Position numbers and translations under genes: made by a program. Below the pieces are notes generated by a model. It had not been told where the DNA came from. It saw only the letters and a list, made by a program, of their open reading frames with translations, and searched no databases. 64,000 bases of DNA from the human T2T-CHM13v2.0 reference genome, Homo sapiens, in NCBI RefSeq assembly GCF_009914755.1, contig NC_060926.1, one strand, 5' to 3'. Positions 39,930 to 44,969 of the stretch are shown here, in pieces; within the stretch, counting starts at the first letter, position 1; every line of letters starts with the position of its first letter.

Positions 39930-41963
39930 TGGAAAAGATAATGCAATCCGGTGATCTCAGCAAAATTCTCTCCTCTATAAAAATAATGAGAAAAGTGACA
40001 AAAATAATCAGAATCAACTTTTTAGAACTCTGGAAATTTACCAAAGTGTTGCAGCCATCCAAGGATTGTTTGCTCAAGCAAAACAACTGAATTTCACCTA
40101 GAATAGTGAGGTTTGTGACATTTTAACTTGCCCCATTCGCATCACCCTTTCTCCAGCTTCATGGCAGCCTCGAAAACCAGCAGCCCCCAGTCACAGAGAA
40201 AACCCGTCTAGTGGTTCTCTGAAAGACCCCACTTGCAAGGCTGTCTTTATTTAATCTGACTTGGAGTTTGCCCAGTGTGAAAAGCCATTTCTTCAGGGGC
40301 ATTTGTTAAAAACATTTAGAGGCAATTGTTTAACTTCACAGATGCTTGAGATAGTGGATAATAGTTGCAACAAACAATAGGCTAATTAAAAAGCTTAAAG
40401 TGAAAACTGGAGAATGGATGTTCATAGGGGCTTTGAAAAGCTCTGACATATTCTGGGAAATCTGGAAGGCCATGAGCAGGAGTAAGATAGGCTTTGCACA
40501 TGCACAGAGCTGTGTGCAGGCTTGGAAAAGATCTTAGAAGGTCCTAAACCCTCGTCAATGGCTCCCTTAAAGTTCTGGACAAGAAGATATTGTCAAAATC
40601 TAAGTTTAAGGTGGAATTGTCAACTGCTTGGATGAGTGTGGAAGACATTCCCCAACATGCATGTAGAGCACCTCAGCAAAAACTTGGAGATGTAAACCAA
40701 AAAGAAAAATCTAAGGTCGTCCTACCCCAACCATCTGAATGGAACCCTCCTCTCTGTCAAGGGCATTCCAAAGTTTACCTGAAAAAGAAGTTCAGGCCAT
40801 GATGGGAAGGCAGAGCTGGACAAACCTGGTAATACCCTCCTCCTTTCTGGAGTTACTAACAGAACAGACTCTAAATCTGATAAGAAACATTTACAATCTA
40901 GTCTGTCTGAAGCCTGCTACCTGGAGGCTTCATTTGCATGACAAAATCTTGGTTTCCACAACCTCTTATCATAACCCAGATATTCCTTTCTATTGATAGT
41001 AACTCTTTCAACCAATTACCAATCAGAAAACCTTTGAATCCGCCTATGATATGGAAACCCCCACTTCCACTTGTCCCACCTTCCTGGACTGAACCAATAT
41101 ACATCTTCCATGTATTGATTGATGCCTTATGTCTCCCTAAAATATGTCACACCAAGTTGTTACCCAACCACTTTGGGCCCATGTTCTCAGGATCTCCTAA
41201 ATGCTGTGTCATGGGCCATTGGCCACTCATATTTGGCTCAGAATAAATCTCTTCAAATATTTTACATAGTATAACTCTTTTTCATTGACAGAGACTTACT
41301 AGTTCCTGATCCTTAAAGAAATTTCTCTCCAATCATTAGATGACCATTAAACTAACAAAGCAGAGACGTCAGTGGCTACACAAGACAAAGAATACAGACT
41401 TATAACACAATTACATCAGAAAAGTTACTAAAAAACAAAAACACCAACAAACTGTAAAAACAACATAACCTGAGGAGTAGAGAAAGAATCTGATTTTTTA
41501 AAGTTGCCACATTGCATTTTTAATGTCCAGTTTTAACAGAAAATTACAAGACATGTAAGGAAACAAGAAAATATGTCTCATACACAGGACAAAATCGATT
41601 AATAGAAACTGTTCCAGAGGAAGCCCAGACATAAAACTTATTAGAAAAAGTCTTTAAATTTAGTTCAAAGGGTTAAAGAAAACCATATCTAAATAACTAA
41701 AGGAAAGGATGAAAATGGTGTTTATCTAACACAGAATATCAGTAAAGAGATAGAAATGATAAAAAAAAAAAAGAATCAAATAGGAATGCTAGAGTTAAAA
41801 AGATAACTAAAAGGAAAATTTTAAGAGGAGCTCAACAGCAGATTTGATCAGGTGGAAGATATAATCAGCAATCTTGAACATTGTTCATTTGAGATTTTCC
41901 AGACTGAGAAACAGAAAGAAAAAAAAATTATGAAGAAAAATGAACAGAACCTCAGAAACCTGT
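39930..41963 (+). mobile_element. Old L1M 5' region/ORF1 fragment, split by a MER4 LTR and cut off at the young L1
   Basis: gagctcaacagcagatttgatcagg...atgaagaaaaatgaacagaacctcagaaacctgt is typical of old L1 ORF1; it does not resume after 44,366. Confidence 0.75.
40691..41290 (+). mobile_element. MER4 (D/E-like) ERV1 solo LTR, 600 nt
   Basis: TG...CA termini (tgtaaaccaaaa...ttgaca), 4-bp TSD GAGA, internal AATAAA. Confidence 0.88.
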
Positions 41964-41972
41964 AGATCTCTA

Positions 41973-42998
41973 TGCTTGTTTTTCTCAGGTTTGTCAAAGA
42001 TCAGATAGTTGTAGGTAAGCGGCGTTATTTCTGAGGGCTCTGTTCTGTTCCATTGATCTATATCTCTGTTTTGGTACCAGTACCATGCTGTTTTGGTTAC
42101 TGTAGCCTTGTAGTGTAGTTTGAAGTCAGATAGTGTGATGCCTCCAGCTTTGTTCTTTTGGCTTAGGATTGACTTGGCGATGCAGGCTCTTTTTTGGTTC
42201 CATATGAACTTTAAAGTAGTTTTTTCCAATTCTGTGAAGAAAGTCATTGGTAGCTTGACGGGGATGGCATTGAATCTGTAAATTACCTTAGGCAGTATGG
42301 CCATTTTCACGATATTGATTCTTCCAACCCATGAGCATGGAATGTTCTTCCATTTGTTTGTATCCTCTTTTATTTCCTTGAGCAGTGGTTTGTAGTTCTC
42401 CTTGAAGAGGTCCTTCACATCCCTTGTAAGTTGGATTCCTAGGTATTTTATTCTCTTTGAAGCAATTGTGAATGGGAGTTCACTCATGATTTGGCTCTCT
42501 GTTTGTCTGCTCTTGGTGTATAGGAATGCTTGTGATTTTTGTACATTGATTTTGTATCCTGAGACTTTGCTGAAGTTGCTTATCAGCTTAAGGAGATTTT
42601 GGGCTGAGACGATGGGGTTTTCTAGATAAACAATCATGTCGTCTGCAAACAGGGACAATTTGACTTCCTCTTTTCCTAATTGAATACCCTTTATTTCCTT
42701 CTCCTGCCTGATTGCCCTGGCCAGAACTTCCAACACTATGTTGAATAGGAGCGGTGAGAGAGGGCATCCCTGTCTTGTGCAAGTTTTCAAAGGGAATGCT
42801 TCCAGTTTTTGCCCATTCAGTATGATATTGGCTGTGGGTTTGTCATAGATAGCTCTTATTATTTTGAAATACGTCCCATCAATACCTAATTTATTGAGAG
42901 TTTTTAGCATGAAGGGTTGTTGAATTTTGTCAAAGGCTTTTTCTGCATCTATTGAGATAATCATGTGGTTTTTGTCTTTGGCTCTGTTTATATGCTGG
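41973..42998 (-). mobile_element. Inverted 5' segment of a young L1 (L1PA2-like), ORF2 reverse-transcriptase region
   Basis: ORF 41885..42964(-) reads [19 protein letters not shown]...[13 protein letters not shown], near-identical to L1 ORF2p. Confidence 0.97.
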
Positions 42999-43000
42999 GA

Positions 43001-44366
43001 GAACAGAACAGAGCCCTCAGAAATAACGCCGCTTACCTACAACTATCTGATCTTTGACAAACCTGAGAAAAACAAGCAATGGGGAAAGGATTCCCTATTT
43101 AATAAATGGTGCTGGGAAAACTGGCTAGCCATATGTAGAAAGCTGAAACTGGATCCCTTCCTTACACTTTATACAAAAATCAATTCAAGATGGATTAAAG
43201 ATTTAAACGTTAGACCTAAAACCATAAAAACCCTAGAAGAAAACCTAGGCATTACCATTCAGGACATAGGCGTGGGCAAGGACTTCATGTCCAAAACACC
43301 AAAAGCAATGGCAACAAAAGCCAAAATTGACAAATGGGATCTAATTAAACTAAAGAGCTTCTGCACAGCAAAAGAAACTACCATCAGAGTGAACAGGCAA
43401 CCTACAACATGGGAGAAAATTTTCGCAACCTACTCATCTGACAAAGGGCTAATATCCAGAATCAACAATGAACTCAAACAAATTTACAAGAAAAAAACAA
43501 ACAACCCCATCAAAAAGTGGGCGAAGGACATGAACAGACACTTCTCAAAAGAAGACACTTATGCAGCCAAAAAACACATGAAAAAATGCTCATCACTGGC
43601 CATCAGAGAAATGCAAATCAAAACCACTATGAGATATCATCTCACACCAGTTAGAATGGCAATCATTAAAAAGTCAGGAAACAACAGGTGCTGGAGAGGA
43701 TGTGGAGAAATAGGAACACTTTTACACTGTTGGTGGGACTGTAAACTAGTTCAACCATTGTGGAAGTCAGTGTGGCGATTCCTCAGGGATCTAGAACTAG
43801 AAATACCATTTGACCCAGCCATCCCATTACTGGGTATATACCCAAATGACTATAAATCATGCTGCTATAAAGACACATGCACACGTATGTTTATTGCGGC
43901 ATTATTCACAATAGCAAAGACTTGGAACCAACCCAAATGTCCAACAATGATAGACTGGATTAAGAAAATGTGGCACATATACACCATGGAATACTATGCA
44001 GCCATAAAAAATGATGAGTTCATGTCCTTTGTAGGGACATGGATGAAATTGGAAACCATCATTCTCAGTAAACTATCGCAAGGACAAAAAACCAAACACC
44101 GCATATTCTCACTCATAGGTGGGAATTGAACAATGAGATCGCATGGACACAGGAAGGGGAATATCACACTCTGGGGACTGTGGTGGGGAGGGGGGAGGGG
44201 GGAGGGATAGCATTGGGAGATATACCTAATGCTAGATGACGAGTTAGTGGGTGCAGCGCACCAGCATGGCACATGTATGCATATGTAACTAACCTGCACA
44301 ATGTGCACATGTACCCTAAAACTTAAAGTATAATTAAAAAAAAAAAATTTTTCAAAAAAAAAAAAA
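43001..44366 (+). mobile_element. 3' segment of the same L1 (ORF2 C-terminus, 3'UTR, polyA); L1PA2-like
   Basis: ORF2p C-terminus (...[13 protein letters not shown]...[11 protein letters not shown]), G-rich 3'UTR and polyA. Diagnostic sites read gatgacGAGttag and acttaAagtat, so it is not L1HS-Ta (ACA/G). Confidence 0.95.
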
Positions 44367-44969
44367 TTTTGTCTCTAAAACAGGTAACAATTTGAATGAA
44401 GAAAACAAAAATTTAATGAATGGCATAAAAATAAATTTCAAGAAAATGAAAGGTGTGTATGATGACTTAATTAAAAGAATGTAAAGGAAAAAAAAAAAAA
44501 AAGATTTTCCAGAGTAGCTACTTGTCTCTGCCATAGAATTGTTAGATAGTTTACTGTAGGTGGACTGTAAATAAATGTTTGCTTAGTTCTAACATTTGAC
44601 TGATATTGGGTTGATCCTTTGAGACTTGGTATATTGTGGATATGCCTAAAGTTTCTTTTTCTACCAAAGATGTGTTGTAATCTATGTCATTACAGAAGTA
44701 GGAGAGGGAAGGAAACTACCATTAAAATCAGTACTTAGGAGCCCAGGCACTGTTCTAGATGTTTGCATATATTAATATGATTTCATTTCATCTTTACAGT
44801 AACCTAGAAGAAAGATATTTAAATAATGACTTTCCAGATCAAAAAATGAGTTTTGATGGCTTTTCTCAGTTTTCATAATTGGCAGAACTGATTTCTGAAT
44901 CCTTTAAGTTGATCAGTTGACAGGAATGCATTTATGATTTTTATCTTTTCTTTTGGGGTTACTTTTCAG

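What the first reader, a model, noticed from the sequence alone, without database searches (positions are those of the whole stretch)
41880..44520. A young L1PA2-type insertion sits exactly at the seam between two unrelated genomic domains
Seen: an old L1M ORF1 stops abruptly at ~41,963-41,972 and does not resume after the young L1, while ANAPC1 intronic and exonic sequence starts to its right with the upstream gene missing. No full TSD flanks the L1. Only tctcta (41,967-41,972 vs 44,372-44,377) and a 12-mer agattttccaga (41,892-41,903 vs 44,502-44,513, immediately after a second A-run) are shared between the sides. Inference: this is a segmental-duplication breakpoint created by, or coincident with, L1 integration, and the L1 subfamily would date it to hominid evolution.
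Basis: partly seen in the sequence, partly recalled or inferred. Interest (0 to 1): 0.7.

Follow-up and report, generated by a model that had tools for sequence, protein, structure and literature searches.

The report
Young L1 at a human duplication seam
A young, partly inverted L1 retrotransposon lies exactly where the human-specific copy of the MORRBID/CYTOR region meets an older ANAPC1 pseudogene, but the L1 probably sat in the pseudogene first and the large duplication ended at its edge.

Summary
The seam is real and now mapped to the base. Homology to 2q13 (MORRBID/MIR4435-2HG) ends at 41,972-41,974.

- It is 5'-inverted (twin-primed): a minus-strand segment 41,973-43,000, a plus-strand segment 43,001-44,347, and a perfect 78-nt overlap.
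- It carries a 127-nt piece 99% identical to chr7:65.16 Mb, most likely a 3' transduction. The piece ends 12 nt after an ATTAAA signal.
- It has a second poly(A), abutting an A6 run of the ANAPC1 intron.

No target-site duplication (TSD) flanks it.

A second copy of the same L1-ANAPC1P junction lies at chr2:87.13 Mb. That copy switches from old-pseudogene type (2.3% from ANAPC1) to 2q13 type (0.49%) inside ANAPC1 homology. So a roughly 554-kb 2q13-derived tract is flanked by a direct repeat of L1 plus about 27 kb.

Best reading (about 0.5): the L1 was already in the pseudogene, and a homology-started, replication-type duplication returned at the L1's 5' edge. Main rival (about 0.28): L1 integration itself joined the two domains.

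The shared 12-mer is far beyond chance and remains unexplained. Ape genomes would decide.

The parts
31952..41974 (+). Tested end of the left domain: the copy of the 2q13 MORRBID/MIR4435-2HG region (the CYTOR block). Homology ends at 41,972-41,974.
   Evidence: 66 mismatches in 10,030 aligned columns against chr2:111,678,683-111,688,682, minus strand. Searches place the end of homology; a probe 148 kb further left is colinear with 2q13.
41892..41903 (+). Left copy of the 12-mer AGATTTTCCAGA, inside the old repeat and 69 nt before the seam.
   Evidence: One search gives the position. One search shows it is also present in the 2q13 paralog, so it is ancestral there. One search gives the chance estimates.
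41973..41974 (.). TG shared by the 2q13-type sequence and the first two bases of the L1: a 2-nt microhomology at the seam.
   Evidence: the 2q13 locus reads ...TCTCTATGAAACAT, the window reads ...TCTCTATGCTTGTT; the L1 arm starts at 41,973.
41973..43000 (-). Inverted 5' segment of the young L1 (ORF2 reverse-transcriptase region).
   Evidence: the minus-strand frame 41,885-43,036 matches Pfam RVT_1 at E = 7.9e-32; other L1 copies match query 1-150 or 152-301 only, which places the junction at 43,000|43,001.
41973..42050 (.). Left arm of the 78-nt perfect inverted duplication (the twin-priming overlap).
   Evidence: pair I1: 100% complementary to 43,001-43,078, with 950 nt between the arms.
43001..44347 (+). 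Sense 3' segment of the L1 with its own A12 tail (44,336-44,347). Its first 78 nt form the right arm of the inverted duplication.
   Evidence: the nearest other L1 copies are 98-99% identical; the 3-nt word in the 3' UTR is GAG.
44348..44353 (+). TTTTTC between two A runs. Its source is unknown.
44362..44488 (+). Piece derived from chr7:65.16 Mb, most likely a 3' transduction. ATTAAA lies at 44,470-44,475, 12 nt before the tail.
   Evidence: 126 of 127 identical. Homology starts at ...TGTT|AAAAA in the chr7 locus. No L1 lies within 1.5 kb of that site in this genome.
44488..44502 (+). Second poly(A) tail. It merges with the A6 run of the ANAPC1 intron.
44502..44513 (+). Right copy of the 12-mer, at the place where the L1's TSD must begin. 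It is ancestral ANAPC1 intron sequence.
   Evidence: the parent reads GAGGAG AAAAAA GATTTTCCAGA GTAGC. One search gives the position.
44497..64000 (+). ANAPC1P4, an old-type ANAPC1 pseudogene running from the intron site onward.
   Evidence: 2.2-3.1% from parental ANAPC1 and 0.50% from the chr2:87.13 Mb copy (105 mismatches in 21,016 columns, counted from 43,031).

Best explanation
The L1 entered an older ANAPC1 pseudogene copy in 2p11.2 by ordinary endonuclease-dependent retrotransposition. Three steps are inferred for that insertion:
- First-strand priming occurred on the T6 run opposite the intron's AAAAAA.
- The transcript had read through from a source L1 at chr7:65.16 Mb, which is now absent there.
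- Twin priming gave the inverted 5' segment.

Later, about half-way along the human branch, a break or stalled fork about 27 kb downstream in that pseudogene was repaired from the wrong partner. The broken end invaded the real ANAPC1 in 2q13 through their 97.7% identity. It copied on through ANAPC1's distal half and MORRBID. It then left the 2q13 template inside an old L1 fragment and resumed on the sister or homologous 2p11.2 copy at the first base of the young L1, using a 2-nt (TG) overlap.

The result is a 2q13-derived tract covering about 554 kb of 2p11.2. One of its junctions is homologous. The other is the seam in this window. The tract is flanked by a direct duplication of 'L1 + 27 kb of pseudogene'.

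Shown: all junction positions, the identity switch, the flanking duplication and the matching divergences. Inferred: the order of events, the replicative mechanism and the pre-existence of the L1.

One consequence is that the CYTOR promoter now drives transcripts (NCAL1, ANAPC1P4) across the seam.
For: 1. The same L1 3' part, chr7 piece, tail and ANAPC1P junction occur at chr2:87,128,491 onward. That copy is colinear with window 43,031-64,000, with 105 mismatches in 21,016 columns, or 0.50%.
2. That copy is pseudogene-type at first. In 8.5 kb, 183 sites have window = copy but differ from the parent, and the copy differs from the parent by 2.41%. From 87,148,947 to 87,155,946 it shows 159 mismatches in 6,984 columns. 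Between 87,155,840 and 87,156,746 it switches to 49 mismatches in 10,034 columns, or 0.49% from 2q13.
3. The left domain of the window is 0.66% from 2q13. Interior probes at 87.30 and 87.56 Mb match 2q13 in the expected order and orientation at 99%.
4. Flank-to-flank divergence (0.50-0.60%) equals tract-to-2q13 divergence (0.49-0.66%), as expected from a single event.
5. Four ANAPC1 copies hold an empty site with the A6 run. This is a plausible endonuclease target.
6. The L1 carries 3 substitutions shared by both copies, plus 2 and 3 private ones, in 1,236 nt. It also has the GAG word of pre-human-specific L1 lineages (the diagnostic itself is recalled). Both fit an L1 somewhat older than the duplication.
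7. Passages of PMC7011539 say the duplication is human-only and arose about half-way to the chimpanzee split.
Against: - The seam falls on what looks like the true 5' end of the L1. The overlap of the two L1 segments is already 78 nt. In the experiments of PMC11702581 (passage read), 32 of 32 inverted insertions had 1-10 nt deletions or duplications there. A random landing point would hit this spot about once in 1,000 to 10,000 tries.
- A 2-nt microhomology at the 5' junction of an inverted L1 is also what twin priming on RNA gives (71% with >= 2 bp in that preprint).
- The left TSD copy and the upstream pseudogene intron that this reading requires are found nowhere in the genome.
- The 87.13 Mb copy begins 30 nt from the inversion junction, at a fold-back junction. 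This is another near-coincidence with an L1 cDNA end.
- The 3 shared substitutions could equally be private to the source element, so the L1 is not shown to be older than the duplication.
- One of the 3 interior probes of the tract (87.43 Mb) has no 2q13 match. The tract also differs from 2q13 by about 104 kb missing and about 96 kb extra.
Confidence: 0.5

Rival explanations
1. L1 integration itself made the seam (an L1-mediated rearrangement, including the special case of an L1 insertion-mediated deletion). ORF2p cut the pseudogene intron and primed first-strand synthesis on the T6 run. The true reciprocal end was lost. A foreign 3' tail ending in the old L1 fragment of the 2q13-type DNA took its place and primed the second reverse transcription on the L1 RNA with its TG end. 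The 12-mer in that tail could have paired with the single-stranded TSD overhang of the L1-extended end, mimicking the proper sticky end.
For: - The seam is exactly at the start of the inverted segment, with 2-nt microhomology, no TSD, and an endonuclease-type 3' junction.
- The 12-mer is explained without a coincidence.
- The unusually long 78-nt overlap fits two uncoordinated primers.
- The other copy of this L1 also ends at a rearrangement junction, a fold-back, 30 nt from the first-strand cDNA end.
- Passages of PMC11702581 report L1-made translocations, duplications, fold-backs with insertions, and twin-primed halves at two distant junctions.
- The L1 is young. Its nearest relatives differ by 10-12 of about 1,190 nt, and it carries only 5-6 private changes.
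Against: - The same L1-ANAPC1P junction heads the other end of the 2q13-derived tract, joined to it by homology. If the L1 arrived with the tract, this needs a later unequal crossover plus loss of a whole first tract copy. No second copy of the left flank exists (only self and 2q13 span the query; 40 of 4,866 candidates were scored).
- Flank and tract divergences are equal, which leaves little time for extra steps.
- A GAG-type L1 active as late as the duplication is less expected (the diagnostic is recalled).
Confidence: 0.28
2. The L1 inserted into the old L1 fragment of the 2q13-type block with an 81-nt TSD (41,892-41,972). The real seam is then on the right of the L1. There the start of the right TSD copy plus the tail (A-run + GATTTTCCAGA) recombined with the identical 17 nt of the ANAPC1 intron.
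For: The left junction and the 12-mer then follow directly from classical twin priming at a staggered break. ANAPC1 homology includes AAAAAAGATTTTCCAGA.
Against: - The target would be ...TTTG|AGATTT, a poor endonuclease site. The ANAPC1 site offers a T6 primer exactly where the tail sits.
- TSDs of inverted insertions are discrete at 12-18 bp (passage of PMC11702581), not 81 bp.
- The 2q13 paralog has no L1.
- It shares the difficulty with the L1-bearing 87.13 Mb copy.
Confidence: 0.05
3. The coincidences are only coincidences. An unrelated end-joining event happened to break next to, or slightly inside, a pre-existing L1, and the 12-mer is chance.
For: A genome-wide scan will turn up some duplication junctions next to L1 ends. 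L1 makes up a large share of the genome (recalled).
Against: The 12-mer directly after the tail recurred in the left flank in 0 of 20,000 shuffles, with an analytic estimate of 1e-5. Together with a seam at the L1's first base, this is too rare even genome-wide.
Confidence: 0.1

Closest known systems
5'-inverted L1 insertion by twin priming, with 3' transduction
   Same: There are two L1 segments in opposite orientation that adjoin in L1 coordinates. Non-L1 unique DNA lies between the element's own A run and a second tail, and it ends 12 nt after ATTAAA. The tail sits on an A-rich target.
   Different: The left TSD copy is missing and the left flank comes from another locus. The overlap is 78 nt rather than 1-10 nt. 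No source L1 lies at the chr7 site in this genome.
L1-mediated rearrangements and L1 insertion-mediated deletions. Cell-culture and cancer data come from passages of PMC11702581. The earlier germline and cell-culture papers are recalled, not read here.
   Same: An L1 with a tail at an endonuclease-type site sits on one side and non-adjacent DNA on the other. There is no TSD. A fold-back junction carries the same insertion in the sister copy.
   Different: The L1-target junction here is present twice, at both ends of the duplicated tract. This argues that the L1 came before the rearrangement.
Replication-based duplication (break-induced replication or microhomology-mediated template switching; recalled concepts)
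   Same: One junction lies inside long homology and the other has 2-nt microhomology. The acceptor is duplicated on both sides of the insert. Insert and flanks have the same age.
   Different: The copied length is about 0.55 Mb across the centromere. The switch lands on the first base of an L1. A 12-nt identity lies 69 nt from the junction rather than at it.
Chimeric 'intron-fusion' pseudogenes of ANAPC1 (PMC13122177, sections and passages read)
   Same: That paper describes ANAPC1P2 as an RMND5A-ANAPC1 intron fusion. It states that ANAPC1P4 shares the CYTOR promoter. The seam here is the fused intron of that unit.
   Different: The main text has 0 occurrences of L1PA, breakpoint or MIR4435. 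Its two occurrences of 'retrotranspos' are a general remark in the Discussion and a reference title. It therefore does not describe this junction. I did not open its supplements.

Membership tests
Twin-primed (5'-inverted) L1 insertion | Two segments of one L1 in opposite orientation that adjoin in L1 coordinates | tested here: met
   78-nt perfect inverted overlap; junction at 43,000|43,001; RVT_1 on the minus strand.
Twin-primed (5'-inverted) L1 insertion | TSD of about 12-18 bp on both sides | tested here: not met
   nothing at the 5' edge matches the sequence after the tail. The only shared word lies 69 nt further left and belongs to the 2q13-type DNA.
Twin-primed (5'-inverted) L1 insertion | Poly(A) tail on a T-rich (bottom-strand) target | tested here: met
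   the parental site reads GAGGAG|AAAAAAGATTTT; four empty sites exist.
L1 3' transduction | Unique flanking DNA between the L1 end and a second tail, ending at a polyadenylation signal | tested here: met
   126 of 127 identical to chr7, ATTAAA at 44,470-44,475, tail from 44,488.
L1 3' transduction | A source L1 directly upstream of that DNA at the source locus | tested here: not met
   no L1 within 1.5 kb at chr7:65.16 Mb in this genome. Homology does begin at a TT|AAAAA site, as expected for an empty source site. Other haplotypes could not be tested.
Segmental-duplication junction | Each flank has a long, highly identical paralog that continues with different sequence past the junction | tested here: met
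   for the left flank. for the right flank.
L1-mediated rearrangement or L1 insertion-mediated deletion | The L1 insertion and the junction arose together, so no allele or paralog has the L1 at that target without the junction | tested here: inconclusive
   the L1-target junction is also at 87.13 Mb. There, however, its 5' part is replaced by a fold-back, so its original left flank is unknown.
Replicative, homology-started duplication | One junction within homology, one with microhomology, acceptor duplicated on both sides, equal ages | tested here: met
   identity switch within a 906-nt interval; TG; flanks 0.50%; tract 0.66% and 0.49%.
L1PA2-type subfamily | Diagnostic 3' UTR word and divergence level | tested here: inconclusive
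   GAG in the window and the 87.13 Mb copy; among 8 relatives, 5 GAG, 1 AAG, 1 ACG, 1 ACA. The meaning of the word is recalled. No subfamily reference sequence was available.

The most novel reading that the evidence does not exclude
The human-specific MORRBID-to-CYTOR duplication was closed by an L1 integration intermediate. A single-stranded 3' tail of 2q13-type DNA paired through a 12-nt match with the TSD overhang of an L1-extended DNA end ('sticky-end mimicry'). Its 3' end then primed the second reverse transcription on the L1 RNA. The 12-mer on both sides of the L1 would be the footprint of that capture. The fold-back at the sister copy of the L1 would belong to the same burst of L1-induced instability.
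Probability: 0.25. Interest if true: 0.85.

Novelty: new member of a known kind. Interest (0 to 1): 0.55.

Why it matters
How large duplications are copied to new places in ape genomes is still largely inferred from junction sequences. Few young junctions are clean enough to read.

Here both ends of a human-only duplication can be read to the base:
- One end is a switch inside ANAPC1/pseudogene homology.
- The other is a 2-nt junction at the first base of a young L1.
- A 27-kb duplication of the acceptor flanks the tract, and a 12-nt match lies close to the seam that chance does not explain.

This makes the mechanism testable in ape and human pangenome assemblies. The choice is between replication-type repair started by paralog homology and capture by an L1 integration intermediate.

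The seam also lies in the intron through which the CYTOR promoter drives NCAL1 and ANAPC1P4 transcripts. This rests on the gene table supplied with the finding and a passage of PMC13122177. For NCAL1 function I saw only the search listing and the start of the abstract of PMC9554105.

Tried and rejected
- **Simple L1 insertion into contiguous DNA.** Rejected: the flanks belong to loci 586 kb apart in 2q13 and in the wrong order for a deletion there.
- **A single tandem duplication made directly in 2q13 and then moved.** Rejected: the right domain is 2.2-3.1% from 2q13 and the left only 0.66%.
- **TCTCTA as a TSD remnant.** Rejected: the right copy lies inside the chr7-derived piece.
- **The 12-mer as homology between two old repeats.** Rejected: there is no similarity beyond the 12 nt on either side (by eye).
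- **Dating the L1 against the duplication.** Inconclusive. In 1,236 nt, 3 substitutions are shared against 2 and 3 private ones. Only 8 of the 38 non-self matches could be fetched.
- **Looking for the lost left TSD and upstream intron next to this L1.** None found. The inversion junction is unique, and the upstream intron occurs only in L1-free copies.
- **Fragility of the 78-nt inverted repeat as the cause of both breakpoints.** Considered but not adopted. A 950-nt spacer should make hairpin formation weak (recalled knowledge, not tested).
- **Print search.** Five searches answered found no description of this junction. Supplements of the papers read were not opened.

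
Full report
**What is there**

The window is chr2:87,668,001-87,732,000 of T2T-CHM13, and its genome could be searched. Reading 41,400-45,100 and the repeat scan show that the young L1 is not a simple element.
- Bases 41,973-43,000 are L1 ORF2 on the minus strand. The open minus-strand frame 41,885-43,036 matches Pfam RVT_1 at E = 7.9e-32.
- Bases 43,001-44,347 are the L1 3' part on the plus strand, ending in A12.
- The first 78 nt of each segment (41,973-42,050 and 43,001-43,078) are perfectly complementary. 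The two segments therefore adjoin in L1 coordinates and overlap by 78 nt. This is the architecture of twin priming.
- The inversion junction 43,000|43,001 is unique in the genome. Of 752 candidates, 40 were scored. Only the self match spans it, and other L1s match one half or the other.

After the A12 come several elements:
- TTTTTC, then an A13 run.
- A stretch (44,362-44,488) that is 126 of 127 identical to chr7:65,162,047-65,162,173.
- A second tail (44,488-44,502).

In the chr7 locus the homology starts at ...TGTT|AAAAA. In the window it ends 12 nt after an ATTAAA (44,470-44,475). This is what a 3' transduction from a source L1 at that site would leave. No L1 lies within 1.5 kb there in this genome. 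The source is therefore absent, or the piece arrived by template switching.

**The two domains**

Left flank:
- Window 40,900-41,972 has one paralog, chr2:111,678,683-111,679,754 on the minus strand. Of 4,866 candidates, 40 were scored, and only self and this locus span the query.
- Homology ends at 41,974. The 2q13 locus runs on as ...TCTCTATGAAACATAC..., while the window turns into L1 at ...TCTCTA|TGCTTG. So TG is shared.
- The following 1,498 nt of 2q13 occur nowhere else except for a tandem-repeat tail.
- One of 8 short frames there matches the L1 ORF1 family Transposase_22 weakly, at E = 0.02 and below the cut-off. This is the only tool support for 'old L1 ORF1'.

Right flank:
- ANAPC1 homology begins at 44,497. 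The parent reads GAGGAG AAAAAA GATTTTCCAGA GTAGC.
- The 1.5 kb upstream of that point in the parent is also present in pseudogene copies at 87.99, 86.92 and 86.91 Mb. It is absent from the window and from the copy at 87.13 Mb (5 of 5 candidates scored).

The seam is therefore real.

**The second copy changes the reading**

- The copy at chr2:87,128,491 onward holds the L1 from window-equivalent 43,031, the chr7 piece, the tail and the pseudogene. It is colinear with the window to 64,000, with 105 mismatches in 21,016 columns.
- In 8.5 kb, 183 sites have window = copy but differ from the parent. Window against copy is 0.60%. Both are about 2.4-2.5% from the parent.
- Further on, the copy stays about 2.3% from the parent (159 mismatches in 6,984 columns) until 87,155,840. 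From 87,156,746 it is 0.49% (49 in 10,034).
- ANAPC1P4 itself stays old-type at that distance, at 97%.
- The window's left domain is 0.66% from 2q13, with 66 mismatches in 10,030 columns.
- Three probes were taken inside the interval. 87,300,000 matches 111,990,517-111,993,006 and 87,560,000 matches 111,826,138-111,828,643, both on the minus strand at 99%. 87,430,000 lies in satellite-like repeats with no 2q13 match.

The region 87.156-87.710 Mb is therefore 2q13-derived, in the right order and orientation. Relative to 2q13 it lacks about 104 kb and holds about 96 kb extra. It begins inside ANAPC1/pseudogene homology and ends at the seam in this window. It is flanked by a direct repeat of 'L1 + about 27 kb of old pseudogene'. 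Flank divergence (0.50-0.60%) equals tract divergence (0.49-0.66%).

Print agrees on the date and on human specificity. It gives 200 kb for the duplicated part (passages of PMC7011539) and about 200 kb in the bioRxiv preprint 10.64898/2026.06.24.734157 (passages).

**Mechanism**

The simplest account has these steps:
- The L1 was already in the old pseudogene.
- A break about 27 kb downstream was repaired from the real ANAPC1 in 2q13.
- Synthesis ran on through MORRBID.
- The new strand left 2q13 inside the old L1 fragment and resumed at the first base of the young L1 on the sister or homolog.
- It then copied 'L1 + 27 kb' until it met the other side of the break.

This explains the homologous junction, the flanking duplication and the equal ages in one event. 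I give it 0.5.

Several observations count against it:
- The landing point is the L1's apparent true 5' end. The 78-nt overlap is already long compared with the 1-10 nt seen in 32 of 32 experimental inverted insertions (PMC11702581, passage). The L1 was therefore hardly, if at all, cut.
- The sister copy's L1 starts 30 nt from the inversion junction, at a fold-back junction. Its left arm is an inverted copy of 87,162,514-87,166,000 with 6 mismatches in 3,487 columns.
- The required left TSD is nowhere to be found.
- The L1's age does not separate the readings. It has 3 shared and 2 or 3 private substitutions in 1,236 nt, and its nearest relatives differ by 10-12 nt.

**The 12-mer**

AGATTTTCCAGA occurs twice in the window. 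One copy begins with the last A of the tail, where the L1's TSD must begin. The other lies in the 2q13-type DNA 69 nt before the seam. Both are ancestral in their own paralogs.

By chance this is about 1e-5 for the position-specific case, with 0 of 20,000 shuffles. Any shared 12-mer occurs at about 1e-3.

Two mechanisms would use it.
- If the L1 was there first, the strand copied from 2q13 could have paired with the L1's left TSD copy. Its TG end would then have primed on L1 base 1, keeping the 69 nt as a loop.
- If the L1 was integrating, the same tail could have paired with the single-stranded TSD overhang of the L1-extended end in place of the proper reciprocal end. It would then have twin-primed on the RNA.

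The second is the most novel reading and I give it 0.25. It removes the coincidences at the seam. However, it needs extra events to put the same L1 junction at the far end of the tract, and no second copy of the left flank exists. A third reading puts the L1 insertion inside the old L1 fragment with an 81-nt TSD. It fits the 12-mer but needs a poor target site and an outsized TSD (0.05).

**Comparison and verdict**

The parts are all known kinds: a twin-primed L1 with a transduction, a segmental-duplication junction, and replication-type repair or L1-mediated rearrangement.

What is new here is the base-level anatomy of both ends of the human-specific CYTOR duplication. I found no description of it in five literature searches. 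The main text of PMC13122177 has no occurrence of L1PA, breakpoint or MIR4435, and its two occurrences of 'retrotranspos' are a general remark and a reference title. I did not open its supplements.

Ape and pangenome assemblies would settle the order of events.

Noticed in passing
Outside the window: chr2:87,125,003-87,128,489 against 87,162,514-87,166,000 (loci L038, L047): An inverted, near-identical pair (6 mismatches in 3,487 columns) forms a fold-back with a spacer of about 34 kb. Its junction lies inside the L1 fragment of the 87.13 Mb copy, at window-equivalent 43,031, within the right arm of the L1's inverted repeat.
   Followed up: partly
window 61,441-63,489: About 2 kb is present in the window and in the 87.13 Mb copy but absent from parental ANAPC1. 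This is an insertion in the old pseudogene lineage or a deletion in the parent.
   Followed up: no
window 47,002-47,005: Parental ANAPC1 holds about 285-300 nt more than the window at this point. The 87.99 Mb copy matches the window only up to 47,005 within the 10 kb fetched.
   Followed up: no
Outside the window: chr2:87,430,000-87,432,499 (L052): A satellite-like tandem repeat lies inside the 2q13-derived tract. It is 77-86% similar to arrays at chr2:90.84-90.90 Mb and has no 2q13 counterpart. The search did not list the self match.
   Followed up: no
Locus L010/L025, chr2:111,676,0xx-111,677,3xx: About 1.3 kb past the break, the 2q13 locus holds a tandem array. Its units have hundreds of 82-91% relatives in arrays on many chromosomes.
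   Followed up: no
window 44,380-44,488 and chr7, chrY, chr1 loci: The chr7-derived piece belongs to a low-copy family. There are 13 further matches at 72-89% on chr7 (56.9-65.6 Mb), chrY and chr1.
   Followed up: no
window 44,348-44,353: TTTTTC interrupts the A runs between the L1 end and the chr7 piece. The 87.13 Mb copy reads A13-TTTC-A11 there. It could be a remnant of an earlier, very short transduction or of slippage.
   Followed up: no
window 40,902-41,290: This stretch matches thousands of dispersed copies at 80-85% (4,866 candidates), so it is an interspersed repeat next to the old L1 fragment. The tool gives no family name.
   Followed up: no
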